From the human T2T-CHM13v2.0 reference genome, Homo sapiens, in assembly GCF_009914755.1 (NCBI RefSeq), contig NC_060944.1: a stretch of 64,000 bases of DNA; one strand, written 5' to 3'. The notes beneath the pieces are model-generated. The model did not search any database and was not told where the DNA came from. It saw only the letters and a list, made by a program, of their open reading frames with translations. Position 1 is the stretch's first letter, and each line of letters starts with the position of its first letter. The position numbers and the translations under genes are program-made. Positions 8,791-64,000 of this stretch are shown here, one piece after another.

Positions 8791-9422
8791 AAGGAAGGAG
8801 AAATGAACCATGAACAATTCCAGAGATTTTGAGACATGGCAATTGGACTTTCTGTCAGGGTAAACATCACAGGTAGGTGTAGTTTTGATTCCATTCAAGT
8901 TTCTGTTTGGGGGAAAGGCTGGAGGGGTTCAATAGGAGTTGAGATGACAACAAGGCCTTAGACAACGTCATATATGAGCCCGCCATAGTGGGCTCTGTGC
9001 TACTGAGGTCTGTGTGTCAAATAAGCGCGTGTTATCTTAGTTTGAGCTTGTGGTAAAATACACATCCCACACATAGATTTTGATGAGCCATGTGATCATT
9101 ACAAAAATTAGTACCCACTAGACTTAGAGTCTTCCAGCACCCAAGACACCCAAGACACTCAAGACACTCTCCATACTAAATTCCATTCCATAGTCAAATC
9201 TTTTGACTATGTAGAAATCCACTTTTTTGTTATCACAATTGCCTTCCTTCCACACTCATCAAAGAAGACTGTCCCCAGGACTTTGGGGATGAATTAGGAT
9301 GATAGCTATGAAATTGTATGCTTACAAAGCACTGGCCAGGCTGGAGCAAGGAGCAGGTCGTCCATGGCGGGATTCCTATAATTTGTTCCAGAAAGAGATA
9401 CAAGATAAAATTATCTGATGGT

Positions 9423-9775
9423 GCCATAAAAAGAATAAAATCATGTTTCTCAGTAACATGGATGGAGCTGGAGGCCGTTATCTGAAGTGAAATGATTCAG
9501 AAACAGAAATTGGAAAACCACATGTTCTCACTTATAAGTGGAAGCTAAGCAATGGGTACACATGGCTGTGCAGAGTGGAATAATAGACACTGGAGACTCC
9601 AAAAGCAGGAGGGTGGTAGCGTGAGGGATGAAATGCCACCTATTGGGTACAATGCACACTATTCAGGTGATGGGTACATGAAAAGCCCAGATTTCACCAC
9701 TGTGCAATATATCCATGTAACACCACTGCACTTTCACTCCCTTAATTTATAAAAATTTAAAAAATTAAAGAAAAA
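9423..9775 (+). mobile_element. 5'-truncated L1PB-type 3' end with A-tail and degenerate TSD
   Basis: L1PB 3'UTR (aaaagcccagatttcaccactgtgcaatatatccatgtaaca); flanks aaaattatctgatggtg / aaaattactggaggtg. Confidence 0.85.
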
Positions 9776-12524
9776 TTACTGGAGGTGTAGGTTTGGGCTT
9801 GTAAGTGCGGAAGAACCAGCCACCCACTTAAATTCAAAGGCCCATTCCATCCTGATGTTTTCATGGAGGAGTGCAATACAGAATCTTCCCAGAGTGTTCT
9901 TTCTCCTAAAAAACGGGGCAGGGGGCAAGGGATCAGCTCTCATTATTCTTTCATTCTTTCCCCCTCTCTCTTTTCTTTTACTTCAATCTACATGTGACAT
10001 CTTATAAGCATTTTCCTGTATGCTCAATTTAACATACTAAAGAACACTTACTAAAATGAGTTATTATTTCTATCTGTCAAAGGATCTTATGAAATTTGTC
10101 ATTTGCTTCTCAAAACCATGCAATATTATCTATAAAATAGAACTGGGTGCAGTTTTCTTGAGCATTAACTAAAAATGATGCTATGCAATTTGTACTACTA
10201 GTTTTATATTAAAAAGGGCACAATAATGTAGAGGAGTAAATAAATAGTACATGAACTTTAAAGATAAACACGAGATTTCAGGGAAAAAAATTGCAATTAT
10301 GAGGGACTGTTATGAGTTCACCCCTCAAACCTCTGGTTTAGTATTATTAGTAAAACCATTAGCATAAGTGTTCTCTTATGCTAAAAGGATAATTTTGGTG
10401 GAAGTGTCTGAGAAACACTTCTACATATAATATCCACCAGTTCAGAAGATAACATAAGCAAGGCTTCAAAATAAATGTGCAACAGGAGGGAGGAAAAGAT
10501 GGGAAAACTTCTAGCGCCATTTTCATTCCGAGACTGAAAATGCCAATAGTATTCCAAGTTTAGGTGACTACTGCATAATTGGCTAAAACATAGCTCACCA
10601 TATTCTTTGGAACAGTGAAGAATTCACCTCAGGGAGACACAGATTTGCTATATCTCATGAGGGGGACAGGTCTGGTACATGGCCACTCAAAGCTTACTTC
10701 TAAGAAGTGATTGAGTGGACGCCCGGGAAATGAATGGTGGCTTTTAAGATTCATTGTCCAGGAAATAAGAGAGTTATGTTGTTTCATGAGTAAATTGGAG
10801 GCTGTTTAGTCCTGGGGACTTTTCAGGCTTAAGAGGGCCTGGGAGAAACCTTCCTTCTCATGATTCTAAATGACTATTAATGTTGCAGCCACTCTGCAAC
10901 TGTCAGTGTGTGACGTGAATTGGACTCAGGAATTATCGCAGGTCAGTGAGTGAGACTGCATCTCCTCATGCGAGAAAACCATGACACTTTTGTCCAGCAG
11001 AAGTGGGAGTCTTTGGGGCTGACCAATGAGTTGCAGAGATGGTGCTCCTTCAGAAAAGGCAGGTAGAGAAGTCCTGCTTTTTTTCTGGGCAGAGTGACTT
11101 TTATTCTGACATCTCAGCTTCCCAGGAGAGGGTGGTACAGCAAACTCAGGAAGGTAGTTTGGAGTCGGTTTCGAACCGTGTTATGAGCAGCCTTTTAATA
11201 AGGTGGCAAGATACAAAGCATAGAAGAGAGTTTGGAAATGAGAGACCATCTCATGGTAAAATCTAGAAGATGGTGTGAGAATATCAGGTCTGAAAAGAGA
11301 CCTTGGAAAGATTAGGAAACCAGACCCCATCGCTTGATCTGCAATTCGTTGTGTCTTCTCAGCTCATGGCTCTGCTCTTGGAGATACTGTGTTTAAGTTT
11401 TTATGCACTGGTTTTTTTTTTTTCCTTTTTAAAATAAAATCTTGGGCAGGCAGAGCCTACTCTTGCAGGGCCTGAGGCAGGATGGAGTGGGGTGCACACT
11501 GGTTCTTTTGATCATGATTTCACTTCAAGCAGTGGGGATAGATTTCATGTTTCCTTCCTGCCCTTTCCCACGAAGCATGCAATTGAGTGGGTGGCTCAGT
11601 CAGAAATGCCCAATAAATATTTGCCAATGAACATAATGGAGCAACACTGATGACAGCAAGGGGTTTGTCCCATCCCTACTGTCTCTTGGAGGTGGCACAA
11701 ATGTGGTCCTGACACCGGGCCTACGGGAGACTTTGTGGCACTCTCTGAGCCTGGAGGCCTGGCCATGATCCATCTTACATCGTTCTACCTACCTGAGTTC
11801 CCTATGCAGTTGCTGCCTTCCAGTGCTTCTCATTTCCCAGAAAAGGAATCACTGTTTCTCCTAACGAGTATGCAGACGGAGGAGGGAATTAAGGAGACAA
11901 GTGAAAACCACCCAGCAAGAGGACTTGAATAGTGTGCAGGGGAGGGTGGTGAAAAGGAGGAAAGGAAAAATGTATCAAAACAATATTATGTCAGTTCTAT
12001 AACTTTCCGCTAATCCTTATGTGGATTTGTACCAGCGTTCATGTCTTACAGTCTAAGACAAGAGCCAGACAAAAATGCTTGGACTTAATAAATCTAGGAG
12101 AGAGGTTTGTTTATCAAGGTCTAGCATTGTTTGAAAACTCAACATCTGTTGAAGACTCGTAGGCCTTTGCCCCCCACACTTTGTGCAGGTGCTTCTGGTC
12201 TTATGACACTGGTGCATGGATTTTAAAGAAACATTCAGTGAAAAAAGCTCAAGGTCATCTCTATACATTGCCAGGGCCTCTGCTCCTAACAAGGCCTCCT
12301 CATCTCTCGCTTGGATAGTTGTAGCATTTCCAAATGGGTCTCCTTACCTCCCATTATATCCACACAGCCCACTCCTCACAGCAAGTTAGTCTTTCTAAAG
12401 CCCAGAATGTGAAAACTTTCTAATACACCCCTAACTTATTAATAGGGATCTTCAAATTCTGAAATTTTTGTTAAGAAACAAAACTTGGCTACCATTCTTC
12501 CTTAGGTGGTCTTTTCTTACGTTT

Positions 12525-13275
12525 TTAAATGCAAATATTTTATAAAAGTATAACATAAGTGTAGAAAAATGTGTGTGTTGATGAATTCTTATACAATTTG
12601 CATGTGCATGAAACCAGCAGCCGGCTCATGAAACACAATACAACCAGCACCCCAAAAGCCCCTCGACGTCCCTCCTAGTCAGTATTCCCCCACGGGTAAT
12701 CCTTGTCTTGACCTCTAATCCCATGGATGAGTTTTATCTTTTTGGAACTTTGAATAGATGGAACCATGCAGCAGGAATTCTACTGCGTCAGTTAGCATGA
12801 TGTTTGTTTCATCCATATTGTGCATGTGGTTGGAGCTGATTCATGCTCATCACTGTATAATGTTTCGTTGAAGGGATATTTATTTACCCATTTTACTGTT
12901 GTTGTTTTTTTCTTTTTAGACAGGGCCTTGCTCTGTTTCTCGGGTTGAAGTATAGTGGCAAGATCAGGCCTCACTGCAGCCTCAACCTCCCAGGTTTAAG
13001 CATTCCTCTCATCTCAGCCTCCTGAGTAGCTGGGAATACAGGCATGCAACGCCCCATCCAGTCAATTTTTAAATATTTTGTAGATATGGGGTCTTACTAT
13101 GTTTCCAAGGCTGGTCTCAAACTCCTGGGCTCAAATGATCCTCCTGCCTTGGCTTCCCAAAGGGTTGGGATTACAGGCATGAGCCATGAGCCACTGCACC
13201 TGGCCCCATTCTACTCTTGATGGACATTTGGGTTGCGTCCAGCTTTTGGGAATGATAAATAGTGTGGTAATGAAA
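12525..13275 (-). mobile_element. Old L1M 3' end (antisense), interrupted by an AluJ
   Basis: Antisense L1M 3'UTR/ORF2 end that resumes after the Alu (gatggacatttgggttg). Confidence 0.7.
12902..13205 (-). mobile_element. AluJ with degenerate TSD
   Basis: Antisense AluJ; flanks ccattttactgttg (12888-12901) / ccattctactcttg (13206-13219). Confidence 0.9.
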
Positions 13276-13289
13276 AATTTTCCTAAACA

Positions 13290-13585
13290 AGGCCCCAAAG
13301 TGCCGAGTACAAAGGGAAATGTTGATAAATTGGCTATGTTAAATTAAAATCTTTTGCCTTTCAAAAGACATCGTTGAGAGAGAAAAGCCAACACATAGAA
13401 GATAATTACAGTATATGTTATCTGGAGAAAGAACTCATTTCTTGAATATAGAGAGAGCTTCTATTAATCAATAAGAAAAGTGCAAATGACTCAATAGTGA
13501 AATAGTCAGAGACTTCAATAGGTACTTTACAAAACAGCACATCCAAATGCCAATGGTCCTTAAATGCATGAAAAGTTGTGCAGGC
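13290..13585 (+). mobile_element. Old L1M ORF2 fragment (sense), inverted relative to the adjacent L1M 3' end
   Basis: ttgataaattggctatgttaaattaaaatcttt...tcaataagaaaa...catccaaatg...gcatgaaaag: the L1 KIDK..IK to HMK region. Confidence 0.65.
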
Positions 13586-14132
13586 AATATTTTTCAGCTT
13601 TACTAGTCTCTTCACTACTCCCAATTAAGCCATACTTTCCTATTTCAGTATTTTTGCACAGATTTTTGAACCTACCTGGGGTGACTTGACCTCCTTTTCC
13701 ACCTCCTTATTTTTTAAGGACCAACCAGAAAATCAGCTCCTTCCAAAGCCTTCCCCACTCCTTTAGGCAGAATTAATTGTTGCTTCTGTAGGATCCCAAA
13801 TTGTGATTTTTCTCAGAGTGAGATGTTTCATTAATCTATCTTCAGGTTCCCAGTATACAGCATTGCTCTTGGTGCATAATAGGTGATTAATACATGGCTT
13901 TCTGAATGAATGTCTAACTTTCTCCTCAAACCTCCAGATAGGATTTAAACCAATGAGGTACAGTGGTAACAAAGGCTTGCTGTGTTGAACGGGAGTTTTT
14001 ATTAGCCGATACAGAGGTTACTTCATACGGAAAAATGCTGGCCTATTTCCCAAATCATAGCTCATTTTCAATGAATAGTATCATCACAAACCTGTGAACA
14101 AAGACCTAGTACTCTATAGGTTGAAAGACATG

Positions 14133-14135
<3 letters not shown>

Positions 14136-14180
<45 letters not shown>
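14136..14180. repeat. (TA)n microsatellite (about 22 units)
   Basis: Directly visible. Confidence 0.95.
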
Positions 14181-14186
<6 letters not shown>

Positions 14187-15296
14187 TAATAAGTAGGTCT
14201 AAAAAACAGCTTTGCTATTCAGAAAGGTCGCTGTGGTGAGTGGTGGGAGCACCAGTTTAGGTCAGGAAACTTCCTTGTTGTATGATATAGGCAACATTTC
14301 TGATCAGAGCAAATTTTCTTTTGTCATCATCCTCATTTCCTGGTACCTCTTTTTCCCCCCATCCCCCCACCACTGGCTCGTGCTTGTACAGGGTTCTCAC
14401 TTCCCCAAACCCAAAGTGTTTCGTGCCTCCAACTTGCTTGTTTCCAGCCTCATATAATTTCTTCAATCCCAACCTTTTATTCTTTTACTGTTCTACCTTA
14501 GTTTAGTTTAGCCAGATGATAAGAAAAAACTTGTTTATTAAGAGAAGGACCTGTCCTTCTCTTAATACCTTTCACAGAGTGGATTCTCAAAACATATTTA
14601 TTGAATCAATGGCTTGGCAATTTCTTACCAAAGTGGGAATGGTTACCAGCTCCTTAACCTTCACATTAGCTTGACTGAATTTTCAACTTATGGGATTGTA
14701 GTTGATAAGAAAATGAGTGAAAATGTTTAGGAAAGCATATACAAAAAGAGATTCTGAGGCAGATAAAGCAACTTTTTCTTGGAATTTGACCCTGGGACCT
14801 TAGGTTGATTCTCTAAACATAGTGTTTTTCTTTATTTTACTTTGGAAATTTATTTTCTAAATCAATAATACACCCCCTTCCCTTTTCAGAGTATGAGAAT
14901 CTCCCTTTAACATTCAAACAATCTTTCATATCCAAGAGTATTAAAATTGATAAATATCAAACGATCAAGTCTTACTCTGAATTGAATGTTTTATAATAAA
15001 GTGTATTTCAGTAGCATGATACCCATATGTATTTGTTGTTATGGGTATATATTTGTATGAAACATATTATTAATATATGTTTATAGATAAAGCTTGGTGT
15101 GAAAATCAATCCATGAGTCCTTGTCAATTAATCCAAGGACTCCTGGATCACTGTTGTAAAAGCTGCACCTTTTGTCCCCAGTGGTATTAACAACACACAG
15201 TAGCAATTGTTTATAACACAGATTGAATGTTAACTGGGCACTGCCTAAAATTATCAGCGGGATGAATGCTGACTTTATGAACTGTTATTTATGGCT

Positions 15297-15725
15297 TGTC
15301 TTAGGTTGGGTTCCCTAGAAGCCTGAGACAGGGATTTGGGGAAAAGTTATTTATTGAGGGAGTGCTCTCAGAAGAAAGGGAGGGAAGGAGAGGAACAGGG
15401 CAGGAAATGAGAAGAAGCATAAAAAAGATGAGATTTTGGGTAAAGTGTAGCTTCAGCCTGATCCTGCAAGGAGCTCTGGCGTGTGAATGGCACCACCAGT
15501 TTGTTCTACCTGAGAATTGAGAGTCTGTCCTTCCTTCACAAGTCATTCGTTGACTATGGGATGGCTCAGGGGGATTGTAAACTCCTTGCAGGTGAGGTGG
15601 CTCCAGTTGCTCAATAGTAATCCTCCAGAGAATGTCGCAGGCATGAGTTCAGAGCACATGGACCACATAGCAGCTGAGGATGCACGGAACTGGTGAACAG
15701 ATCTGGAAAGGGCACTAAGAGCATG
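15297..15725 (-). mobile_element. ERVL LTR16/LTR33-like solo LTR
   Basis: tgtcttaggttgggttccctagaagc is the reverse complement of the LTR16-type 3' terminus. Confidence 0.7.
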
Positions 15726-15742
15726 TAATTGTTACATGGCTT

Positions 15743-16300
15743 TATTCATTCATTCGTCCACTTAATATATATTTGTTGAATCCCTAGTCTGTGCAAGTTC
15801 CTCAGATAGAGTGGTGAATAAGTTGAATAAGGCCTTATTTTCATAAAGCTTACAGTTTGTAGGAGAATACAGAAGTAAACCAGTAGATAACTATAGCGAC
15901 AAGGTAACTTTAGAGATTGATGATTTTCTTAGAGAAAAGATAAGCAGTTCAATAGGTTGTGGAATGACTGGGGCAAAGGGCAGGCCCAATGAAAGCACTT
16001 TTGGTTAAATGGTCAGGGATGGGGACTTGAGCAGAGATAAGGAGCAAGCCGTGCAAGGATGGGAGTGTGCAACATTTTGGCAGAGGGAATGGCCATCGTC
16101 AGAGCCCTAAGATGGGCCAAAGCTCAATGCCTCTGAAGAACAGAATGAGGTCTGGTAAGCCTGTGGTGCACTTGGGAGAGTTGTAAGAAAAGGGTGGAAA
16201 AGTGGGCATAATGCACAAAGGAGTCCAACATTGTAAGAAGTTGGGCCATCTTGTATTCCAGTTGTAGAAATGAGTTCTTGGATCTGCATTAAGATGGGAA
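15743..16300 (-). mobile_element. L2 LINE 3' fragment
   Basis: attcattcattc...atatttgttgaa...aagcttacagt: antisense L2 tail and body. Confidence 0.7.
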
Positions 16301-17803
16301 AGATAGCAATTTGTCAGACCGTGACTTAGGTTTGCCTTAACATTGTCTATTAAAAACAGGGGTTTACTAAGCAGATTAATAAAATAAACAAGGAAAAATT
16401 TAGGATTAAAGGACATCTCACTGTTTTCAAACTCCAGAAGCATAGCAGGCATTGATTTCAGACATTTTATATGGTAATTATGAGAAAAATTTCTCTTTGT
16501 TAAAACCTTCCCAAGATTTTAAAAGATATATAGCTGGACTCAACCTTCCTTTGTCCTTGGCAATGTGACAAAGCAGCATTTTTAGAAAAGAATGTAAATT
16601 GGACTTGACCTTGGTTATACACAGGGAGAGTTATCAAGGTCATTTTATTGGGATTTTGTTTGTATTGTAATTGCTATTAAAATGAATCAAGAAGTAAGTA
16701 TAGAACATCTCTTTTTCGTTCAACATTCTGCTCTGGGTACTGAGACTGCAAGTCTTAAATGCAGATCTATTTCTCCATTCTCAAGTAATGATGTGTTTTC
16801 CTTAATCTTCTCCAAGTCCACTGGAGAAGGTACTATGATTGCAAATGCTACTAGATCAACATCACGGAAAATGTTTCCTAGACTTTATTCCTGAAGAGGA
16901 TAATACTTGCAGACTATCAGCCTCCATCAAAGCTGGTGAATGAAACCCACTGAACCTGTATAAAAGAGGCCCAGGAAAACTGTGTTTTTGGTCTGATCTA
17001 TCAGATCATCATTGAAGATCAAGATCAGAGAACAGGTCTCTAAACCGAAGCAAACTTAACATCTCAAACCAGAATGAACTGGAAATATAAGCAGCATTTT
17101 TATTCTTTCTAAAAATGGATTTTTCAAATAGTTTTGATTTATCAAAGATTCACAATCATTTTGTCATATTCTTTCCCACATCAACCCCTGCCTTTACGCC
17201 CTTCTGTGAAACCCACGTTTAATTTAGGGGGAACTTAAATCCATATATTTCTGATTCATTTGCTCGATGTTCTTTGGGAAGGCCTAGTTGATGTACGAAG
17301 AGTCTTATGATAACTTTTATAAGCCTTTAAGAATTTTTCTTGGAGACAGAAAATCATCTTTTCAGGCTTAAAGTGATCCTCAAAATCAGAAAAAAACTCT
17401 GGCTTATTGGAAATGGTGCTTTGAGGGAGTCTTAAACTCAGGCATTTGTGTATGTGTGTCCCACCCCAGTTGTGAGCTGTGCAGCAGGTAGCAGATAAAT
17501 AGCCCCTGAGAGGTGGGAGAAGCACAGGAAAAGGGACACAAAAAGAACCCGAATAGTGTAAGGATTCTTGGACCTGCCATGTTTTTCCATTTCTGAAGAG
17601 CAACCAGGGAAGTTCCACAACCTATAAAGTCAGATTCAATCTATGAAGCATATCTAAAGCCAAATGATTGTCAATCAACTTTGTATAGCATCTCTGAGCA
17701 AGTCAGAGAATGCTAGGACAGCTTTCAGATTTGTAAATAGCATAAGGCTTCATTTGTAAGTGCACTTCACTGTTGCTCAGCACTGTTCAGTGACCAGTCT
17801 TCA

Positions 17804-19615
17804 TTTTTTTTTCTTATTACACTTTAAGGGCTGGGTTACATGTGCAGAACATGCAGTTTTGTTGCATAGGTATACACGTGCCATGGTAGTTTGCTGCACC
17901 CATCAACCCATCACCTATATTAGGTATTTCTCCTAATGTTATCCCTCTCCTTGACCCGCACCCTTACAGGCCCTGGGTGTGATGTTCCCTTCCTTGTGTC
18001 CATGTGTTCTCATTGTTCAACACCCACTTATGAGTGAGAACATGGGGTGTTTAGTTTTCTGATCTTGTGATAGTTTGCTGAGAATGATGGTTTCCAGCTT
18101 CACCCATGTCCCTGTAAAGGACATGAACTCATTCTTTTTTATGGCTGCATAGTATTCCATGGTGTATATATGCCACATTTTCTTAATCCAGTCTATCACT
18201 GATGCACATTTGGGTTGGTTCCAAGTCTTTGCTATTGTGAATAGTGCTGCAATAAACATACGTGTGCATGTGTCTTTTTAGTAGAATGATTTATAATCCT
18301 TTGGATACATGCCTAATAATGGGATTGCTGGGTCAAATGGTATTTCTAGTTCTAGATCCTTGAGGAATCACCACACTGTCTTCCACAATGGTTGAGCTAA
18401 TTTACAGTCCCACCAACAGTGTAAAAGCGTTCCTATTTTTCCACAAAGTCTCCAGCATTTGTTGTTTCCTGACTTTTTAATGATCACCATTCTAACTGGT
18501 GTGAGATGGTATCTCATTGTGGTTTTAATTTGCATTTCTCTAATGACCAGTATGATGACGATTTTATCATATGTCTGTTGGCTGCATAAATGTCTTCTTT
18601 TGAGAAGTGTCTGTTCATATCCTTTGCCCATTTTTTGATGAGGTCATTTGCTTTTTTCTTGTAAATTTGTTTAAATTCTTTGTAGATTCTGGATATTAGC
18701 CTTTTGCCAGATGGATAGCTTGCAAAAATTTTCTCCCATTCTATAGGTTGCCTGTTCACTCTGATGATAGTTTCTTTTGCTGTGCAGAAGCTCTTTAGTT
18801 TAATTAGATCCCATTTGTCAATTTTGGCTCCTGTTGCCATTGCTTTTGATGTTTTAGACATGAAGTCTTTGCCCATGCCTATGTCCTGAATGGTATTGCC
18901 CAGATTTACTTCTAGAATTTTTATGGTCCTAGGTCTTATGTTTAAGTCTTTAGTCCATCTTGAGTTGATTTTTGTATAAGGTGTAAGGAAGGGGTCCAGT
19001 TTCAGTTTTCTGCATATGGCTAGCCAGTTTTTCCAACACTATTTATTAAATAGGGAATCCTTTCCCCATTGCTTGTGTCTGTCAGGTTTGTCAAAGATCA
19101 GATGGTGGTAGATGTGTGGTGTTATTTCTGAGGCCTCTATTCTGTTCCATTGGTCTATATATCTGTTTTGGTACCAGTACCATGCTGTTTTGGTTACTGA
19201 GGCCTTGTAGTATAGTTTGAAGTCAGGTAGTGTGATGCCTCCAGCTTTGTTCTTCTTGCCCATTATTGTCTTGGCTATGTGGCTCTTTTTTGGTTCCATA
19301 TGAAGTTTAAAGTAGTTTTTTCCAATTCTGTGAAGAAAGTTAGTGGTAGCTTGATGCGGATAGCATTGAATGTATAAATTACTTTGGGCATTAAGGCCAT
19401 TTTGACGATATTGGTTCTTCTTATCCATGAGCGTGGAATGTTTTTCCATTTGTTTATGTCCTGTCTTATTTCCTTGAGCAGTGGTTTGTAGTTCTCCTTG
19501 AAGAGGTCCTTCACATCCCTTGTAAGTTGTATTCCTAGGTATTTTATTCTCTTCATAGCAATTGTGAATAAGAGTTCACTCATGATTTGGCTCTCTGCTT
19601 GTCTGTTTTTGGTGT

Positions 19616-19616
<1 letters not shown>
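17804..19616 (-). mobile_element. 5'-truncated L1PA7/L1PA8-like element (3' ~1.8 kb), 3' partner of the FAT1 chimera
   Basis: Antisense L1 3'UTR and short T-tail at 17804; ORF-track fragments 18017-19583 are frameshifted L1 ORF2p C-terminal peptides ([40 protein letters not shown]). Confidence 0.95.
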
Positions 19617-20451
<835 letters not shown>

Positions 20452-21036
20452 TAAAGATGAAAAATTGTTGATTACAGAGTTAAACAAGTTCTACTAAGAA
20501 TATGAAGACTGTGGGCTCGTTAGGGACACATGAACAATCGCTGGACAGTGTGTGCAAAAGTATAAGAATAATTTTCTTTGTCCCATTTATTTCAGCTGTG
20601 CTATGACCTTTTTTAAGCAGGCTTTGAGGGCACCTGATGTCTCTGGGAAAAGAATGATATATAAACCACTCATTTAAGCCAAGTACTTGGCAATGCATGC
20701 ACGCTCATCAGAAATGGGTCATTTTATTGCTAAGAGCTTGGACTCTTCCTGGCTCGAGTGTCATTTTTCTACTAAGGCCAGAAATGTGCTCCACTATCAT
20801 CATCCCAAGTTTGGCCAATTTTTCCAAAGCCAGTGTTTATACAATCCTCCTAAAAAGTTTTCTAGCCTCACCAGGCTGCAGTGGGGTGACTTGGAAAGCA
20901 GGGATGTGATGAACCTTCATCTCAATGAATGCCACTACTATCTATGTAGGTTTTCAAAGAAAAAAAAACCCAGAACAACACTTGATTCTTTTCTTTTTAT
21001 GCTTTCCAAATGCAACCTATCAGCAAGTTCAAGAAG

Positions 21037-21198
21037 TCTTCCTTCTCAACTGTGGTCATCAAATCAGCAATATTAGCATCACCTGAAAATTTGTTAGAAA
21101 TTCAGAATCTCAGGCCCCGTCCCTGACTTGCAGAATTACAATCTGCTCTTCAGCAAGCTTCCCAGTGATTCTTGTGCACATTAAACTTGGAGAAGCCC
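21037..21198. mobile_element. MER5A-like MITE
   Basis: gcatcacctgaaaatttgttagaaattcagaatctcaggccc...cacattaaacttggagaagc. Confidence 0.75.
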
Positions 21199-21628
21199 CT
21201 CCATGAAATACCTCTTTATTCACTGCCATCTCTTGCCTGGTTTATTGCAATTCTTTCCTCCCTTCTGCTCTTGTCCTCCTTTAGCCTATTTTCAATTCAG
21301 TTACCAGAGTGGTCTTCAAAAAAAAAAAAAAGAAAGAAAAAGAAAAAATTACTGAAATCAATTTACACTGCTCTTTAAAACCCAAAGCTCTGCACTGCAC
21401 ATGAATATCTGAACTTGCCATCACTTAAGAGTCCCATATGAAGTGGCTCATCTTCCCAACCCCTCTCAACCATTCTTCCTGGTCTGTTCTTTAGCCAAGC
21501 TGGTCTTTATCTATTTCAGCCTGCACGAGCTTTCTCTTTGTTTGGTGTTCTTTGGCAGGACTTCTCATGGCTTTTGGTCATCAGATTTATTACAAATGTC
21601 ACCTACCTAGAGAATTCTTCTTGGCTAC

Positions 21629-22333
21629 CATCTTAGTTGGTTTGTGCTGTTATAACAAAATACCTGAAACCAGGTAATTTACAAAGAACCAAAATGTATT
21701 TCTGCACAATTCTGGAGGCTGGGAAGTCCAAGATCAAGGCACTGACATGTTTGGTGTCTGGTGAGGGCTGCTCTCTGCTTCCAAGACAGTACCTTGTTGC
21801 TGCATCCTCCAGAGTGGAGGAATGCTGTGTCCTCACATGGCGGAAGGGCAGAAAGGCAAATGGGAGGGGCCTAAGTGAGTTTCCACCAGCCATTTAGTAT
21901 GGCATTAATTCATCCATGAAGGTAGAGCTCTCATTACTTAATCACTTCCCCAAAGGCTCCATCTTCTTTTTTTTTGAGATGGAATCTCACTCTGTTGCCC
22001 AGGCTGGAATGCAGTGGCCTGATCTCTGCTCACTACAACATTCACCTCCTGGGTTCAAGTGATTCTTTTGCCTCAGCATCCAAGTAGCTGGGATTACAGG
22101 CATGAGCCACCATGCCCAGCTAATTTTTGTATTTTTAGTAGAGATGGTGTTTCACCATGTTTTCCAGGCTGGTCTCGAACTCCTGACCTCAGGTCATCTG
22201 TCTGCCTCAGCCTCCCAAAGTGCTGGGATTACAGGCGTGAGCCACCATGCCCAACTGGCTCCATCTCTTATTACCACTACAGTGGGGATTAAGTTTCAAC
22301 ACATGAGCTTGGAAGGACATATAGACCACAGCA
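21629..22333 (-). mobile_element. MaLR MST-type solo LTR with 5-bp TSD GCTAC
   Basis: ttctggaggctgggaagtccaagatcaagg; gctac at 21624-21628 and 22334-22338. Confidence 0.85.
21965..22256 (-). mobile_element. AluS inserted in the MST LTR
   Basis: Antisense Alu; exact TSD ggctccatct at 21955-21964 and 22257-22266. Confidence 0.95.
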
Positions 22334-23067
22334 GCTACCAAATTTAAATATACCTCCAATTAAACCATACATACCATATCATTCTCTTTTACTTTTTATT
22401 GCTTTCTGAATTATCTATAACTATCTTGCTTATTTGTTAATGGATTAATGATTGTTATCCAGAATGGATACTCTCAGAAACTTTTCCCATTTTATTTCCA
22501 GCTATATTATCAACACCTAAAATGGTACCTGGAATAGAAAAGGTACTTGGTATATATATTTGTTGAATAAATTAGTGAATAAATTCATATCTATATGATC
22601 TGAACAAAAACCAGTGTCTTGCCATTTATGTTCCTTCCTCTTTCTTTTCCTTTTTTTTTTTTTTTTTTTGGCAAATATTTGTTAGGCACTTAACCTATGC
22701 CAGGTATAAGGATAACCAGGGGAGGGGAAATAGATCTTGACACTGTCCATGTGGAGTATACCAGGATGTAGCAGAGAATAATAACTAAAATCACAGCAAT
22801 GCTGTCTCATAGAGTATATAAACGTTTTCCTAAGTTAGTTCAGGGGACCACCATGAGCTGTGGGGCTACAGGATGAATACATGCTAAACAGCAGAGGAAA
22901 GGGAAGAGAGTAGATGGGGAGAGCATTTCATTTTGTGCAGAAATAATAATGAATCCAAAGGCAACATGGCATATTGAAGAGACAGAAAGAGGGACCCAGA
23001 GAATAACTGGAGAACCGTATGTAGTGGGGCTGGCAGGCAGGTAGCCAGAGCAGTAGAACCTTCTGTG

Positions 23068-23201
23068 TAGGGCAACTATAAGTCCTGCTTTGCCTGGGGG
23101 ATTTCTGGTCTACCTGTGTGATCTGCTGTAATTATTAGTAGCACCCTCTTTTATTGTCAGAAAGTGTTCTGATTTGGATTAGGAACTATGTGGTCACTCT
23201 T
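23068..23201 (-). mobile_element. MER94-like hAT-Blackjack MITE
   Basis: tagggcaactat...ctgtaattattagtagcaccctctttt...tatgtggtcactct resembles antisense MER94. Confidence 0.6.
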
Positions 23202-23249
23202 ATGGGCCATATCATAGGCATTTATATTCAAAGACTCACCATAAAGTCT

Positions 23250-23520
23250 TGTGGTTAAGAATGATGACTCTGGACCCAGATTTTCTGGAGTCAAGTAAGT
23301 GGTTTACTATTATTTGCATTATGCATCCTTAGGCAAATTGCTAAACTTCTCAGCCTTGGCTTCTTCATTGTAAAATGGGGATTCAATAATTATAGTATTT
23401 AACTCATGTAATTTTAATAAAGATTAAATGAGTTAACACATGTTAATCTTGTAGCATAGTGTCTGGTATACATAGTAGGTAGGTACTCACCAAGTGTTAG
23501 CTATATTATTGTTATTATTA
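23250..23520 (+). mobile_element. MIR SINE
   Basis: gtggttaagaat...ttaggcaaattgctaaacttctc...gtaaaatgggg...agtgttagctatattatt. Confidence 0.8.
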
Positions 23521-23544
23521 ATATTTTAAAAATTGGCTTATTAA

Positions 23545-23695
23545 TTTTTAGAGACGGGGGTCTCTCTATGTTGCCCAGGCTGGAGTACAGTGGCTATTCA
23601 TAGGTGTGATTATAAAGCACTGCATCCTTAAATTCCTGGACTCAGGTGATCCTCCTATTTCAGCCTCCCCAGTAGCTGATACCATGATGCTCAGC
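23545..23695 (-). mobile_element. FAM (fossil Alu monomer)
   Basis: Monomer carrying the FAM-diagnostic cagtggctattcataggtgtgat segment. Confidence 0.75.
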
Positions 23696-25789
23696 TTTAA
23701 ATTTTAGTGTATGAATAATAATGGGAGGCTGTGACAGATATTAGAAGGTGTTGACATCATCAGAATTGTGTTTTTCAAAGGTCATTTAGACTTTCATGTG
23801 AAATAATATTTCAGGGAAAGCAAGGAGAAAATGCCTATAGAGTTCTCCATAAAATGACTAGTACATAATAAGTCTTCAATAAATAGACAAAATAAGTGAT
23901 CATCATGATCTTAATTATCAGCATCTTGTAGTACAAATAGAAGTGTTCAGAAGTAATATAGTTCGTAAATATTTTCTATTACTTTCCATTTGGTAGTATT
24001 TGGGGACAAAGCAGCTATTTGGAATTTGAGAGTCAACTCAGAGACTATTGTCTTAGAATCAGTAGAAGTTCAAAGATCAGAGTTGGAGGGACCACCCAAT
24101 TGACTCTTGTAAGTCAAGCTTTTTGCTCTCCCAAAAGGAATCCATAGGATTACAGACCCTCACTTGGAGTCCTTGGATTGCACAAAGTGTTTCTATATGA
24201 ATGTTTGATTTGGTATGCAATAATTTCCAGGGCAAAATTACTCAGCAACAGCAAGAAGGGTTGGAAGGCTTCAGCAAATTCCTCCCGGTGGGCCTTGACT
24301 TGAACTTTTCGGGTCTGGACTATTTCTTCCACAGCTCCCTGACACTCCTGTTACCCCAAGGGTGAGAGGAAGCGATGTGAGTGAAAAGGGGCCCCTTTCT
24401 CCTGAGGTTAGTGCGGGAGACACCTCATAGTCACTTGTCACTTTGCAATTCCCCTCTCCCAGGAGTGTGGAGAAGGATTACAGAAACCTGGCAGATAATT
24501 AACATTGCCAGTGTGAATGGAAGGGATTTGTCACACAATGACTTGAGCACCATAACTTTCTCACTAAACCTGGGGAAAAGGTAAGGATTTATGGGAAAAT
24601 CCCATTTAAGAATAGTTAAGGAACAGGGGGCATTATGGTAAATTGTTAACTATTCAGTTAACCAGGACTCATCCTGTTACCGTATCTGGTTTTCCCAGGC
24701 TAAAGGCTTAGAATATACTGAGGTGATTTTAGAAAACTAAGTTTTCTGACCTTTCCCAAGGCCTTTATAAACCTATGGGAATCATTTTAATGATTAGAGT
24801 CCATGGGGGGAAATTTAGCTTTTTGAATTCTTGGTGGATTGGCTTTTGGATAAAAGAGGATCCAACATATTGCATTAGATATCAGTGGTGAAAATCACAT
24901 GGAATATTAGCAGGCAGGACCTGAGAAAAGAACATAACCACGTGTAGATGGGAGGCAATCTTTTAATTTCCAATGCATGACTAAAATATCCTACCTTTTT
25001 GCCATTTCCAGAGCACTGAAAACTCAAAGTTCTCTTATTTTTTCAGGTTTCTAAGGATTGAAAAAGAGATTTATTCAAAGCCATGCTGATTGTCATGAAG
25101 GTACCTTAAGGTGGTGTGTTATAAGACTGGTTTATGTAGAAGGACAGGAAATGAGAAAAGTGGTACTTGGAACTGACACTCCAAGTAGGGGAGGCAGGGA
25201 CGGATGCACCGTCTAACATCCAACAACATATACAAATGCTAGTGAAGATAATGTCAATATTAAGTCCTACTATGTGTCACCATCTCATCGAGTTCTTCAT
25301 AACAACATTATAGGAAAGTCATGTCATTCTTAATTTCATAGACAAAAACCTAAAGATGAGAGAATTTAAGTACCAGGCCAGACTGTGAAGGAACTTGAGT
25401 CCAAGCTAAGCACTTTATGACTCTCCTTTATGTTGGCCAATTTTGTTAACGTCAGTGGAATGCAATGTATTCTGAGCTTTTGGGAGAGTGATATCAAGCT
25501 TTAGGTGCTGGCCTCATAGGCTTTTTTTGTGGTAGAAATAAAAATTAATATAAAAGCATTTTGTAGGGAGGTATAATCTAATTTATAAATAGATAAAACC
25601 AGTATTTAAAGAATGTGATGTGTGAGGGAAAAGAGAAACCCCTACCTCAAAATATCTCTCTCATTGCTCAGCATAAGTATGTGAAGTTCCTTATTTGAAG
25701 ATGCATTTCTTGGAGCCCAAGAGTATTTTAGAATTTTCTGTAATCTTGTTTCTTTTCTTCTCTCCTTCGCTCTGTCTTTTTGTTTCTTC

Positions 25790-60698: not shown

Positions 60699-63600
60699 CT
60701 AGTCTCTGATAAAACAGACTTCAAACCAACAAAGATAAAAAAAAAAAAAGACAAAGAAGGGCATTACATAATGGTAAAGGGATCAATGCAACAAGAAGAG
60801 CTAACTATCCTAAATGTATATGCACCCAATACAGGAGCACTCAGATTCATAAAGCAAGTTCTTAGAGATGTACAAAGAGACTTAGACTCTCACACAATAA
60901 GAGTGGTATACTTTAACACACCACTGTCAGTATTAGACAGATCAATGCGACAGATAATTAATAAGGATATTCAGGACTTGAACTCAGCTCTGGACCAAGT
61001 GGACCTAGTAGACATCTACAGAACTGTCCACTCCAAATCAACAGAATATACATTCTTCTCAATACCACATCACACTTACTATAAAATTGACCACATAATC
61101 CAAAGTAAAACACTCCTCAGCAAATGCAAAGGAGCAGAAATTATAACAAACACTCTCTTAGACCACAGTGCCATCAAATTAGAATTCAGGATTAAGAAAC
61201 TCACTCAAAACTGCACAACTACATGAAAACTGAACAGCCTGCTCCTGAATGACTAGTGAGTAAATAACAAAACTAAGGCAGAAATAAGTAAGTTCTTTGA
61301 AACCCGTGAGAACAAAGATACAACGTACCAGAATCTCTGGGACACAGGTAAAGCAGTATTCAGAGGGAAATTTATGGCACTAAATGCCCACATGAGAAAG
61401 TGGGAAAGATCTGAAACCAACACCCTAAGATCACAATGAAAAGAACTAGAGAAGCAAGACCAAACAAATTCAAAAGCAAGCAGAAGACATGAAATAACTA
61501 ATATCAGAGCAGAACTGAAGGAGATAGAGACACGAAAAACCCTTCAAAAATCAATAAGTCCAGGAGCTGGCTTTTTTGAAAAGATTAACAAAATAGATAG
61601 ACTGCTAGCCAGACTAATAAAGAAGAAAAGAGAGAAGAATCAAATAGACACAATAAAAAATGATAAAGGGGATATCACCACTGATTCCACAGAAATACAA
61701 ACTACCATCGGAGAATAGTATAAACACCTGTATGCAAATAAACTAGAAGACCTAGAAGAAATGAATACATTCCGGGATACATACACCCTCCAAAGACTAA
61801 ACCAGGAAGAATTCGAATCCCTGAATAGACCAATAGCAAGTTCTGAAATTGAGGCAGTAATTAATAGCCTACCAACCAAAAAAAAAGCCCAGGACCAGAC
61901 AGCTTCACAGCCAAATTCTACCAAAGGTACAAAAAGGAGCTGGTTCCATTCCTTCTGAAACTATTCCAAACAATAGAAAAAGAGAGAATCCTCCCTAACT
62001 CATTTTATGAGGCCAGCATCATCCTGATACCAAAACCTGGCAAAGACACAACACAAAAAGAAAATTTCTTTTTCCAATATTCCTGATGAACATCTATGTG
62101 AAAATCCTCAATAAAATACTCGCAAACCGAATCCAGCAGAACATCAAAAAGCTTATCCACCATGATCAAGTTAGGTTCATCCCTGAAACCCAAGGCTAGT
62201 TCAATATACATAAATCAAGAAACATAATCCATTACATAAGCAGAACCAATGACAAAAACCACATGGTTATCTCAGCAGATGCAGAAAAGGCCTTCGATAA
62301 AATTCAACATCCACTCATGCTAAAAACACTCAATAAACTAGGTATTGATGGAACATATCTCAAAATAATTAGAGCTACTTATGACAAACCCACAGCCATT
62401 ATCGTATGGAATAGGCAAAAACTGGAAGCATTCCCTTTGAAAACCGGCACAAGACAAGGATGCCCTCTCTCACCACTCCTAAGTCCTGGCCAGGGCAATC
62501 AGGCAAGAGAAAGAAATAAAGAGTATTCAAATAGGAAGAGAGGAAGTCAAATTGTCTCTTTTTGCAGATGACATGATTGTATATTTAGAAAACCCTATCA
62601 TGTCAGCCCAAAAGCTCCTTAAGTCGATAAGCAGCTTAAGCAAAGTGTTAGGATACAAAATCAATGTGCAAAAATCACAAGCCTTCCTATACACCAATAA
62701 TAGACAAACAGAGAGCCAAATCATGAGTGAAGTCCCATTCACAATTGCTACAAAGAGAATAAAATACCTAGGAATACAACTCACAAGAGATGTGAAGGAC
62801 CTATTTAAGGAGAACTACAAACCACTGCTCGAGGAAATAAGAGAGGACACAAACAAATGGAAAAACATTTCATGCTCATGGATAGGAAGAATCAATATCA
62901 TGAAAATGGTCATACTGCCCAAAGTAACTTATAGATTCAATGCAATTCCCATCAAGCTACCATTGACTTTCTTCACAGAATTAGAAAAACGACTTTAAAT
63001 TTCATATGGAATCAAAAAAGAGCCCGTGTATCCAAGACAATCCTAAGCAAAAAGAACAAAGCTGGAGGCATCACTCTACCTGACTTCAAATTATACTACA
63101 AGGCTACAGTAACCAAAACAGCATAGTACTGGTACCAAAATAGATATATAGACCAATGGAACGGAACAGAAGCCTCAGAAATAACACCACACATCTACGC
63201 CCATCTGATCTTTGATGAATCTGACAGACACAAGCAATGGAGGAAGGATTCCCTATTTAATAAATGGTGTTGGGAAAACTGGCTAGCCATATGCAGAAAA
63301 CTGAAACTGGACCCCTTCCTTATACCTTATACAAAAATTAACTCAAGATAAATTAAAGACTTAAACATAAGACCCAAAACCATAAAAACCCTAGAAGAAA
63401 GCCTAGGCAATACCATAAAGGACATAGGCATGAGCAAAGCCTTCATGACTATAACACCAAAAGCAATTGCAACAAAAGCCAGAATTGACAAATGGGATCT
63501 AATTAAACTAAAGAGCTTCTACACAGCAAAAGAAACTATCATCAGAGTGAACAGACAACCTACAGAATGGGAGAAAGCTTTTGCAATCTATCCATCTGAC

Positions 63601-64000
63601 AAGGGGCTAATATCCAGAATCTACAAGGAATTTAAACAAATTTACAAGAAAAAAAAAAAGCAACCCCATCAAAAAGTGGGTGAAGGATATGAACAGACAC
63701 TTCTCAAAAGAAGACATTTATGTGGCCAACAACATATGAAAAAAGCTCATCATCACTGGTTCTTAGAGAAATGTAAATTTCTCTATCACAATGAGATACC
63801 ATCTCATGCCACTTAGAATGGTGATCATTAAAAAGTCAGGAAACAGATGCTGGAGAGGAGGTGGAGAAATAGGAACACTTTTACACTGTTGGTGGGATTG
63901 TAAATCAGTTCAACCATTGTGGAAGAGAGTGTGGCAATTCCTCAAGGATCCAGAACTAGAAATACCATTTGACCCAGCAATCCCATTACTGGGTATATAT
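60699..64000 (+). mobile_element. 5'-truncated L1PA7/L1PA8-like element, defective ORF2 (partial EN, RT, C-terminus), running off the window end
   Basis: ORF fragments NVYAPN, FNTPLS..D, KIDH, DHSAI (EN), [17 protein letters not shown] and FADD (RT, 62561-62572); multiple stops and frameshifts. Confidence 0.95.

What the first reader, a model, noticed from the sequence alone, without database searches (positions are those of the whole stretch)
19600..19630. Seamless FAT1-to-L1 junction: a mid-CDS fragment with no poly(A) of its own
The minus strand reads ...GAA AGT GTA AAA GAG AAT T|TACACCAAAAACAGACAAGCAGAGAGCC. The L1 part aligns with the other L1 in this window (62686-62730, ttcctaTACACCaataatagacaaacagagagcc). 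The junction is therefore at about 19616 with at most ~1 nt of overlap, no A-tract and no TSD. An ordinary processed pseudogene starts from the mRNA 3' poly(A). This one comes from the middle of the cadherin ectodomain, so it most likely entered as a passenger on L1 cDNA by RT template switching or RNA ligation. This holds under either model for the Alu. The FAT1 frame is out of frame with L1 ORF2 and stops at 19576.
Basis: partly seen in the sequence, partly recalled or inferred. Interest (0 to 1): 0.75.

Follow-up and report, generated by a model that had tools for sequence, protein, structure and literature searches.

The report
FAT1 exon fragment fused to L1
A 508-base piece from the middle of the FAT1 cadherin gene sits on chromosome 20 joined directly to the front of a truncated L1 retrotransposon, with an Alu in front of it. 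This is a clean example of a known but uncommon way in which the L1 copying enzyme picks up a stray RNA.

Summary
On the minus strand, FAT1 homology runs 20123 to 19616: 508 nt, 468/508 identical, no gaps, to one large FAT1 exon on chr4. L1 homology starts at 19616, at ORF2p codon 743, so the two share one T. There is no A-tract and no duplication at the junction, and no FAT1 sequence anywhere else in the window.

The order on the minus strand is:
- full-length Alu with a 19-nt A-tail
- one extra G
- the FAT1 fragment
- 5'-truncated L1 with a short A-tail

The 9-bp direct repeat AAAATGAAG brackets the whole 2,615-bp block. Non-CpG divergence is similar for all three parts, about 4-5%.

Best reading: the FAT1 RNA fragment was joined to L1 by ORF2p template switching, or less likely by RNA ligation, and inserted by target-primed reverse transcription. 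Splice sites are absent at both breakpoints.

One genome cannot settle the role of the Alu. It may be a third part of the same event (a tripartite chimera). Or it may have been there first, with the FAT1-L1 insertion landing in its A-tail.

The kind is known (Buzdin-type chimeric retrocopies). I found no printed description of this locus as one. Interest is modest.

The parts
20423..20431 (-). 5' copy of the direct repeat AAAATGAAG (target-site duplication). It lies immediately upstream of the Alu 5' end. It could extend to 11 nt (AGAAAATGAAG) with one mismatch.
   Evidence: this is the longest exact match between the 39 nt ending at the Alu start and the 3' boundary, 20431-20423 = 17807-17799; 94 of 127,982 window 9-mers (7e-4, the two true copies included) match any non-homopolymer 9-mer of the 27-nt 3' boundary string.
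20144..20422 (-). Full-length dimeric Alu body. It looks like AluS, but that rests only on recalled diagnostic bases and no tool tested it.
   Evidence: two Metazoa_SRP matches below the gathering score (44.2 and 43.3 bits against 70) on the minus strand, at 20422-20306 and 20287-20142. The first starts at model position 1; 20 of 49 BLAST HSPs to other Alus cover it end to end.
20125..20143 (-). Alu A-tail, A11 T A7 (19 nt)
   Evidence: read directly.
20124..20124 (-). A single G between the Alu A-tail and FAT1. The FAT1 parent has C at this position. It is either a non-templated nucleotide or a mutated tail A.
   Evidence: parent ...CCACCC|AGGTTC against window ...AAAAAAAG|AGGTTC..
19616..20123 (-). 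FAT1 fragment (FAT1P1): 508 nt, sense orientation, entirely from inside one large cadherin-repeat exon. It has no poly(A) and no intron junction.
   Evidence: 468/508 identical with 0 gaps. Of the 40 differences, 13 are at CpG sites, 20 are synonymous and 20 nonsynonymous, and one creates a stop.
19616..19616 (-). The junction base T, shared by the FAT1 parent (...AATTT) and by L1 (TACACC). This is a 1-nt overlap.
17814..19615 (-). 5'-truncated L1: ORF2 from codon 743 to the end (with stops and frameshifts), then about 200 nt of 3' UTR ending ...TAATAA.
   Evidence: residues 3-115 of the 19275-19625 translation align to ORF2p 742-854 (PDB 8sxt, 8uw3), E 2e-58; the 18017-18277 translation aligns to ORF2p 1190-1274; 24,943 first-look candidates in the genome, best copies 92% identical; the 8 nearest copies end ...A(T/A)AA.
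17808..17813 (-). Short L1 A-tail, G then A5. It runs on into the four As of the 3' repeat copy.
   Evidence: by the same crude measure the tail is 10 nt here. In 20 similar L1 copies the median is 11.5 and the range 0-33.
17799..17807 (-). 3' copy of the direct repeat AAAATGAAG

Best explanation
FAT1P1 is not an ordinary processed pseudogene. It is the 5' part of an L1-made chimeric retrocopy.

Inferred sequence of events. L1 ORF2p nicked the target at ...CTTTAG/AAAATGAAG... and primed on the poly(A) of an L1 RNA. It copied that RNA back to ORF2 codon 743. The growing cDNA was then continued on a FAT1 RNA at ...GAGAATT(T), and 508 nt of FAT1 exon were copied. This is a template switch.

A less likely alternative is that the two RNA pieces were ligated before reverse transcription.

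The cDNA then either jumped a second time, onto the A-tail of an Alu RNA, and copied it to its 5' end. That would be one event with three parts, and the AAAATGAAG duplication would be its own. Or it was joined to an Alu A-tail already present at the site.

What is shown: the anatomy, the breakpoints, the bracketing duplication, the absence of FAT1 elsewhere, the absence of splice signals, and the similar ages of the parts. What is inferred: the RNA intermediate, the switch itself, and the order of events.

The fragment is non-coding debris. It has a stop, and it is out of frame with ORF2.
For: 1. All three parts lie on one strand in sense order and abut without filler, apart from one G.

2. 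FAT1 homology ends and L1 homology begins at the same base, 19616.

3. The L1 part is collinear from ORF2p residue 743 to 1274/1275, then 3' UTR and A-tail. The block therefore ends as a TPRT product should.

4. The exact 9-bp repeat AAAATGAAG abuts the Alu 5' end and the L1 A-tail. The chance of such a match is below about 1e-3.

5. No FAT1 sequence lies outside 19616-20123 in the window. The fragment has only one other place in the genome, the parent (2 of 2 scored candidates).

6. The ages agree on non-CpG divergence.
- L1 terminal branch against its 8 nearest copies: 4.0%, or 4.5% over all sites.
- Alu: 3.8-4.7%.
- FAT1 against its parent: 27/471 = 5.7%. This sums two lineages. The 20:20 synonymous:nonsynonymous split, against 25% synonymous expected at random, shows that part of it accrued in the constrained parent gene.

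7. There are no splice signals. The parent has GG, not GT, after the breakpoint. L1 has TA, not AG, before it.

8. ORF2p performs non-templated addition and template jumping in vitro (PMC10830420, passages read). Nine de novo insertions made of two RNAs were seen in L1-expressing clones (PMC11702581, passages). 113 Alu/L1 and 17 mRNA/L1 chimeras are catalogued in hg38 (bioRxiv 10.1101/2025.02.02.635956, sections 23 and 24).
Against: - The fragment comes from a single exon, so no removed intron proves an RNA intermediate.
- The duplication is short. Four of its 9 bases are As that merge with the tail. If the Alu came first, the duplication belongs to the Alu and the FAT1-L1 insertion has no visible duplication of its own.
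- The nick site reads TTTT/CT, or TTCT/AA if the repeat is 11 nt. Neither is the textbook TTTT/AA.
- A 1-nt overlap is what chance gives and says nothing about mechanism.
- Raw FAT1 divergence (7.9%) exceeds that of the L1 (4.5%). My reconciliation through CpG sites and parent-lineage change is rough.
- No outgroup genome could be examined, so arrival of the parts together is not shown.
Confidence: 0.85

Rival explanations
1. Tripartite single event. One TPRT reaction with two consecutive template switches, L1 RNA to FAT1 RNA to the A-tail of an Alu RNA. The AAAATGAAG duplication belongs to the whole 2,615-bp block. This is a variant of the best explanation, not an alternative to it.
For: - The duplication abuts the Alu 5' end and the L1 tail, and the Alu has no duplication of its own: AAAATGAAG upstream against GAGGTTCAT after its tail.
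- Non-CpG ages of the Alu (3.8-4.7%) and the L1 (4.0%) cannot be told apart.
- The A-run after the L1 is 10 nt, which is typical of 20 similar L1 copies (median 11.5). The Alu-first model has to fit an L1 tail, a second all-A duplication and leftover Alu tail into those 10 nt.
- The extra G fits non-templated addition at a jump.
- Tripartite chimeras with duplications are known in mouse and Magnaporthe (PMC2104539, section 8).
Against: - Prior odds are poor. Alu/L1 chimeras are rare (113 catalogued).
- A-rich stretches of existing Alus are preferred, sense-biased targets for L1-driven insertion (PMC2836564, passages).
- Every feature seen here also fits the Alu-first model.
- A Pol III Alu transcript should carry 3' flank and a U-run beyond its A-tail. 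None is present, so the jump would have had to land inside the tail.
Confidence: 0.45
2. Alu first. An Alu inserted with AAAATGAAG as its own duplication. Later a bipartite FAT1-L1 chimeric cDNA inserted in sense into that Alu's A-tail. That split the tail and left a second duplication made only of As, which cannot be seen.
For: - The layout is the one expected for a tail insertion: same orientation, A-run on both sides.
- The T interruption followed by A7 gives a good nick site (TTTT/A) on the opposite strand.
- PMC4476161 (conclusion passage) names this as the alternative explanation of tripartite structures.
- PMC2836564 reports sense-biased insertion of L1 and Alu into Alu and L1.
Against: - With the usual 15-16 bp nick spacing (PMC2836564) and at most 9 As available, a third TGAAG copy should lie between the Alu tail and FAT1. 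Only TAAAAAAAG is there. The model therefore needs a short spacing, or a once-long A-run that shrank on both sides.
- The right-hand A-run is only 10 nt.
- The Alu is not measurably older than the L1, though the Alu estimate has a standard error of about 1.4%.
Confidence: 0.4
3. RNA ligation before reverse transcription, for example RtcB-type joining of cleaved RNA ends as proposed for U6/L1. The FAT1-L1 RNA, or an Alu-FAT1-L1 RNA, existed as one molecule and was copied without any switch.
For: - The junction is seamless and the parts are in the same orientation.
- If FAT1 ends ...AAUU and L1 starts UACACC, both cut sites follow a UN dinucleotide (UU^U in FAT1, UA^U in L1). That is the recalled preference of RNase L-type cleavage, which leaves ligatable ends.
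- Ligation is given as an accepted alternative in 10.1101/2025.02.02.635956 and in PMC11702581.
Against: - UN dinucleotides are common, so the fit is weak.
- The FAT1 5' end follows CC, not UN.
- The extra G at 20124 is not explained by ligation unless it is a later A-to-G change.
- The evidence cited for ligation concerns U6 (passages). I saw no such evidence for internal mRNA fragments.
Confidence: 0.2
4. Joining at the DNA level. A FAT1 DNA or free cDNA fragment was captured during double-strand-break repair next to an L1, or an Alu-L1 pair, that was already there. This would be a templated-insertion type of event.
For: A single-exon origin means nothing in the fragment itself demands an RNA intermediate. 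The junctions have 0-1 nt of overlap and one filler base, as end joining also gives.
Against: - The break would have to fall exactly between an Alu A-tail and the 5' end of a truncated L1.
- The insert would have to land in the same orientation as both.
- Its age would have to match theirs.
- That is three coincidences with no supporting feature.
Confidence: 0.05
5. L1 and Alu inserted into a longer, older FAT1 processed pseudogene.
For: None found.
Against: - No FAT1 homology lies on the far side of the L1 or the Alu.
- The parent sequences that should flank the fragment (...TTCCACCC upstream, GGAAATTAAC... downstream) are absent.
- Neither element has its own duplication inside FAT1 sequence.
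Confidence: 0.01
6. Cis- or trans-splicing of a FAT1 exon to L1 RNA, as proposed for 5'-exon/L1 chimeras.
For: This mechanism is proposed for 6 of 17 mRNA/L1 chimeras that end at splice donors (10.1101/2025.02.02.635956, section 24).
Against: The FAT1 breakpoint is mid-exon, about 0.97 kb from the end of the open frame, with no GT after it. The L1 breakpoint has no AG before it. The L1 is deeply truncated, not near full length.
Confidence: 0.01

Closest known systems
Buzdin-type chimeric retrogenes/retrocopies: a 5' part from one RNA fused to a 3' L1, Alu or pseudogene part, by L1 RT template switching. Buzdin 2002/2003 are recalled and were not held. I read them as summarised in PMC2104539 and PMC4476161.
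   Same: Different transcripts are fused directly in the same orientation. The 3' part is a 5'-truncated L1 with an A-tail. A short direct repeat brackets the block. The site is A-rich.
   Different: The middle or 5' partner here is an internal 508-nt piece of a long mRNA, with neither natural end. It is not a full-length small RNA such as U6.
Tripartite chimeric retroelements: WEIRD/Mg-SINE/MGL in Magnaporthe and B2/U6/L1 in mouse (PMC2104539)
   Same: Three RNA-derived parts in sense order ending in a LINE. The 5'-most part is full length. A direct repeat brackets all three.
   Different: PMC2104539 says the two human tripartite elements known in 2007 had no recognisable direct repeats. This one has a 9-bp repeat. 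It cannot be separated from insertion into an Alu A-tail, an ambiguity that PMC4476161 also names.
Alu/L1 chimeric insertions, 113 in hg38 (Law & Burns, bioRxiv 10.1101/2025.02.02.635956)
   Same: A full-length, sense-oriented Alu lies 5' of a truncated L1. A duplication brackets both. The Alu and L1 ages are similar.
   Different: Here 508 nt of FAT1 exon lie between the Alu and the L1.
mRNA/L1 '5' transduction' chimeras, 17 in hg38 (same preprint, section 24)
   Same: Genic RNA in sense orientation is fused 5' of L1 within one duplication.
   Different: In those cases the gene part starts at the first exon(s), often ends at a splice donor, and joins a near full-length L1. Here the gene part is mid-exon at both ends, has no splice signals, and joins an L1 truncated at ORF2 codon 743.
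Ordinary processed pseudogene
   Same: It derives from a protein-coding gene, is disabled, and was made by the L1 machinery.
   Different: It has no poly(A) of its own, does not start from the mRNA 3' end, and covers 508 nt of a single exon.

Membership tests
L1-mediated chimeric retrocopy (template-switch type) | Parts from unrelated transcripts fused directly, in the same orientation | tested here: met
   FAT1 20123-19616 and L1 from 19616 lie on one strand with a 1-nt overlap. The Alu tail, one G and FAT1 follow one another directly.
L1-mediated chimeric retrocopy (template-switch type) | The 3' part runs to the natural 3' end of L1 and carries an A-tail | tested here: met
   ORF2p 743-1274 is collinear, the 3' UTR ends TAATAA, and G plus A9 follow. 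The tail is short but typical for copies of this age.
L1-mediated chimeric retrocopy (template-switch type) | A target-site duplication brackets the whole chimera | tested here: inconclusive
   AAAATGAAG brackets Alu+FAT1+L1. If the Alu came first, this repeat is the Alu's and the FAT1-L1 duplication would consist only of As and be invisible.
L1-mediated chimeric retrocopy (template-switch type) | L1 endonuclease target motif (TTTT/AA on the nicked strand; consensus as quoted in PMC2836564) | tested here: inconclusive
   The site reads TTTT/CT for a 9-bp repeat, or TTCT/AA for an 11-bp repeat with one mismatch. It is near the consensus but not the consensus.
L1-mediated chimeric retrocopy (template-switch type) | The parts arrived together in phylogeny | not testable with these tools
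   No other primate genome was available. Only divergence-based ages could be compared, and they agree within error.
Tripartite chimeric retroelement (double template switch) | All three parts delivered in one event, with none pre-existing | tested here: inconclusive
   One bracketing repeat, no Alu-only repeat and concordant ages speak for it. Insertion into the A-tail of a pre-existing Alu predicts the same layout.
Ordinary processed pseudogene | Copy begins at the mRNA 3' end and has its own poly(A) | tested here: not met
   The fragment ends mid-exon at ...GAGAATTT and abuts L1 ORF2 sequence. There is no A-tract.
Ordinary processed pseudogene | Introns removed | not testable with these tools
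   The whole fragment lies inside one 4,119-nt open exon.
L1 5' transduction / spliced exon-L1 chimera | Full-length or near full-length L1, with the gene part starting at a transcript start or ending at a splice donor | tested here: not met
   The L1 starts at ORF2 codon 743. The FAT1 part is internal to an exon at both ends, with no GT and no AG at the breakpoints.

The most novel reading that the evidence does not exclude
This is a human tripartite chimera, full-length Alu / internal mRNA fragment / truncated L1, made in a single germline TPRT event by two consecutive ORF2p template jumps. It still carries its target-site duplication, which PMC2104539 reported as lacking in the two human tripartite elements known in 2007. 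The middle part would show that a broken piece of a long mRNA, with neither cap nor poly(A), can serve first as acceptor and then as donor template.
Probability: 0.45. Interest if true: 0.4.

Novelty: new member of a known kind. Interest (0 to 1): 0.3.

Why it matters
The locus corrects how FAT1P1 should be read. It is not a decayed processed pseudogene but a passenger fragment on an L1 insertion. That also explains why it is only 508 nt long and comes from the middle of the cadherin ectodomain.

Its breakpoints are mapped to the base. One junction has a 1-nt overlap and the other has one extra G. It therefore adds a data point on how ORF2p joins unrelated RNAs.

If primate alignments show that the three parts arrived together, it would be a well-preserved human example of a double template jump. 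It has no coding potential, and nothing seen here suggests a function. In print it serves only as a 'nearby gene' label in GWAS tables (PMC9110509).

Tried and rejected
**Models rejected**
- **Alu inserted last, at the 5' edge of a FAT1-L1 chimera.** Re-use of the same nick site would leave a third AAAATGAAG copy after the Alu tail. The 9 nt there are TAAAAAAAG: 6 of 9 match, but 5 of the matches are tail As.
- **Longer FAT1 pseudogene interrupted by L1 and Alu.** Rejected.
- **Splicing.** Rejected.
- **L1 5' transduction.** Rejected, because the L1 is truncated at codon 743.

**Searches that gave nothing useful**
- Pfam gave no family for 4 of 4 L1-frame translations at E<=0.01. The L1 identity therefore rests on PDB ORF2p matches and on genomic copies.
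- Tandem Repeats Finder found nothing in 17000-21500.

**Attempts to choose between Alu-first and a single event**
- Tail-length comparison favours a single event only weakly. My rough estimate of the likelihood ratio is about 2.
- The age comparison cannot resolve it. The Alu estimate rests on 10 differences in 214 sites.

**Literature and supplements**
- 'FAT1P1' is held by 5 papers. I read passages of 2. One match is a primer name and one is a GWAS label. For the other 3 I saw only the search listing.
- Buzdin 2003 (PMC169886) and Buzdin 2004 (PMC11138840) are not held.
- Gogvadze 2005, which describes the two human tripartite elements, was not looked up, so I cannot say whether this locus is one of them.
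Additional file 2 of PMC2104539 and Supplementary Tables 3 and 4 of the Law & Burns preprint, which might list this locus, were not seen.

**Not assigned by any tool**
- L1 and Alu subfamily names. No repeat library was available. 'AluS-like' and 'roughly L1PA5-7, about 25-35 Myr' rest on recalled consensus features and rates.
Full report
**Observation**

Read on the minus strand, the window shows ...GAAAGTGTAAAAGAGAATTT|ACACCAAAAACAGACAAGCAGAGAGCC.... A search of the window's own assembly with 19601-20123 returned two places: the window itself and G000:C4:189965358-189965865 on the minus strand, at 92% over query positions 1-508. BLASTN against that locus gives 468/508 identities with no gaps, covering window 20123 down to 19616.

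The parent gene continues ...GAGAATTT|GGAAATTAAC downstream and reads ...TTCCACCC|AGGTTC upstream. The window has ACACC... and ...AAAAAAAG at those two places.

The sequence from 19616 downward aligns to the other L1 of the window (62690-64000, 88.8% over 1,317 columns), beginning exactly at 19616. The T at 19616 is therefore common to both sources. Read through the junction, the FAT1 frame stops at 19578-19576 and is one base out of step with ORF2. The FAT1 frame already carries a Tyr-to-stop change inside the fragment.

**The parts**

*FAT1 fragment.* The parent stretch lies at codons 883-1051 of a 1,373-codon (4,119-nt) open frame. A 991-aa stretch around it has nine Pfam cadherin matches (E 5e-134). 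The fragment is therefore internal to one large cadherin-repeat exon at both ends.

*L1.* Translations of the L1 part match solved LINE-1 ORF2p structures. Residues 3-115 of the first open stretch align to ORF2p 742-854 (E 2e-58), which puts the breakpoint at codon 743. The last open stretch aligns to 1190-1274. About 200 nt of 3' UTR follow, ending TAATAA like the eight nearest genomic copies, and then G plus nine As.

*Alu.* Upstream of FAT1 lie one G, a 19-nt A-tail (A11 T A7) and a dimeric Alu. The Alu's two halves give sub-threshold Metazoa_SRP matches on the minus strand, and the left one starts at model position 1 at 20422. The Alu is therefore full length.

**Bracketing repeat**

The nine bases AAAATGAAG occur immediately 5' of the Alu (20431-20423) and immediately after the L1 A-run (17807-17799). 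This is the longest exact match between the two boundaries. Of 127,982 9-mer positions in the window, 94 (7e-4, the two true copies included) match any non-homopolymer 9-mer of the 27-nt 3' boundary string. Neither the Alu alone nor the L1 alone has a repeat of its own.

BLASTN of the whole window against 160 kb of chr4 around the parent exon gave 435 HSPs. This region contains the 1,373-codon exon and also a 1,098-codon open frame further upstream. Between 15000 and 23000 the only non-repeat HSP is the 508-nt one. Stretches 15000-17800 and 20500-21600 have none. The other single-copy HSPs in the window are 70-80% identical repeat matches outside FAT1 exons. FAT1 sequence does not continue beyond the L1 or the Alu.

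**Ages**

*FAT1.* There are 40 differences, 29 transitions and 11 transversions, and 13 are at CpG sites. Non-CpG divergence is 27/471 = 5.7%. The differences split 20 synonymous to 20 nonsynonymous, where random mutation would give about 25% synonymous. Part of the divergence therefore accrued in the constrained parent gene. A rough partition assigns about 4.6% to the pseudogene lineage; this figure is my inference.

*L1.* Against its eight nearest full-length-matching copies, which are 91-92% identical to it, a three-point estimate gives a terminal branch of 4.5% over all sites and 4.0% at non-CpG sites. Private differences number 74 of 1,716.

*Alu.* Against 20 full-length Alus from the window and the chr4 region, the non-CpG terminal branch is 3.8-4.3%, and it differs from the majority base at 10 of 214 non-CpG sites.

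The three parts cannot be told apart in age. The Alu estimate is imprecise.

**Mechanism**

Several features fit a product of L1 target-primed reverse transcription in which the cDNA was continued on a FAT1 RNA after leaving the L1 RNA at ORF2 codon 743:
- all parts are in the same orientation;
- the 3' end is an L1 3' end with an A-tail;
- a repeat brackets the block;
- there is no FAT1 sequence elsewhere in the window;
- the fragment has no poly(A) of its own.

ORF2p adds non-templated bases and jumps templates in vitro (PMC10830420, passages). Nine de novo insertions built from two RNAs were recovered from L1-expressing cell clones, with microhomology or untemplated bases at the junctions (PMC11702581, passages).

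Splicing is excluded because there is no GT after the FAT1 breakpoint and no AG before the L1 breakpoint. RNA ligation before reverse transcription cannot be excluded. If the shared T is given to L1, both cut sites follow a UN dinucleotide, which fits a recalled RNase L-type preference. That fit is weak, and ligation does not explain the extra G at 20124.

**The Alu**

Two readings remain.

(a) One event with two jumps. The second jump would land on the A-tail of an Alu RNA, which was then copied to its 5' end. The AAAATGAAG repeat would belong to the whole 2,615-bp block.

(b) The Alu came first, with AAAATGAAG as its own duplication. The FAT1-L1 chimera later inserted in sense into its A-tail, leaving a second duplication made only of As.

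PMC4476161 names exactly this ambiguity for tripartite structures. PMC2836564 documents sense-biased insertion of L1 and Alu into Alu and L1.

In favour of (a):
- The A-run after the L1 is only 10 nt, typical of 20 similar L1 copies (median 11.5, range 0-33). Reading (b) must fit an L1 tail, a second duplication and leftover Alu tail into those 10 nt.
- With the usual 15-16 bp nick spacing, reading (b) predicts a third TGAAG copy that is not there.

In favour of (b):
- Prior frequency. Insertions into tails should be far commoner than Alu/L1 chimeras, of which 113 are catalogued.

I put (a) at about 0.45 and (b) at about 0.40. A third order, with the Alu last, is rejected because no third repeat copy follows the Alu tail.

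**Comparison with what is known**

The kind is known. Chimeric retrogenes made by L1 template switching are summarised in PMC2104539 and PMC4476161; the original Buzdin papers were not held. Alu/L1 and mRNA/L1 chimeras are catalogued in bioRxiv 10.1101/2025.02.02.635956 (sections 20, 23, 24, 30, 31).

This case differs from the mRNA/L1 chimeras described there. In 15 of those 17 the gene part maps to the beginning of the transcript, and six end exactly at a splice donor. Most join near full-length L1s. Here the gene part is mid-exon at both ends and joins a deeply truncated L1.

PMC2104539 (abstract, background, section 8) states that the two human tripartite elements known in 2007 had no recognisable direct repeats. 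This locus has one.

I found no printed description of FAT1P1 as a chimera. 'FAT1P1' is held by 5 papers. I read the passages in two: one match is a primer name and one is a GWAS 'nearby gene' label with the remark 'we know limitedly'.

**Verdict**

The locus is a new member of a known kind, of modest interest. Primate alignments would settle whether it is a true double-jump product.

Noticed in passing
window 19601-19615: The RefSeq FAT1P1 span (19601-20123) runs 15 nt past the true end of FAT1 homology (19616) into L1 ORF2 sequence. The parent gene and the window disagree at most of these positions.
   Followed up: yes
window 20238-20289 (-) and 20311-20373 (+): Sub-threshold Rfam matches lie inside the Alu: mir-1268 (54.5 bits against a gathering score of 83) and mir-1285 (26.8 against 56). 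My guess is that they reflect Alu-related sequence in those Rfam families, not a microRNA gene.
   Followed up: no
window 62690-64000 (+): A second L1 on the opposite strand runs off the window end. It is 88.8% identical to the chimera's L1 over ORF2 from codon 743 onward. Its sequence upstream of that point (CAAGCCTTCCTA) shows what the chimera's L1 lost.
   Followed up: partly
window 17799-20431 within 9376-24994: The whole Alu-FAT1-L1 block lies in sense orientation inside an intron of the lncRNA LOC101929413. This follows from the annotation supplied with the finding, which places exons at 9326-9375 and 24995-25050 on the minus strand. No overlap with any exon was seen.
   Followed up: no
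L027, L039 (3' ends of genomic L1 copies on C23 and C1): Two of 20 L1 copies of similar age have tails turned into (TAA)n microsatellites of 26-33 nt. Four of 20 have no A-run at all after TAATAA by my crude measure.
   Followed up: no
G000:C4:189964391-189968509 (FAT1 parent exon): Differences between FAT1P1 and its parent are half synonymous (20 of 40), against 25% expected at random. A sizeable share of the 7.9% divergence therefore arose in the functional gene at silent sites. The pseudogene could serve as a rough outgroup for FAT1 silent-site change.
   Followed up: partly
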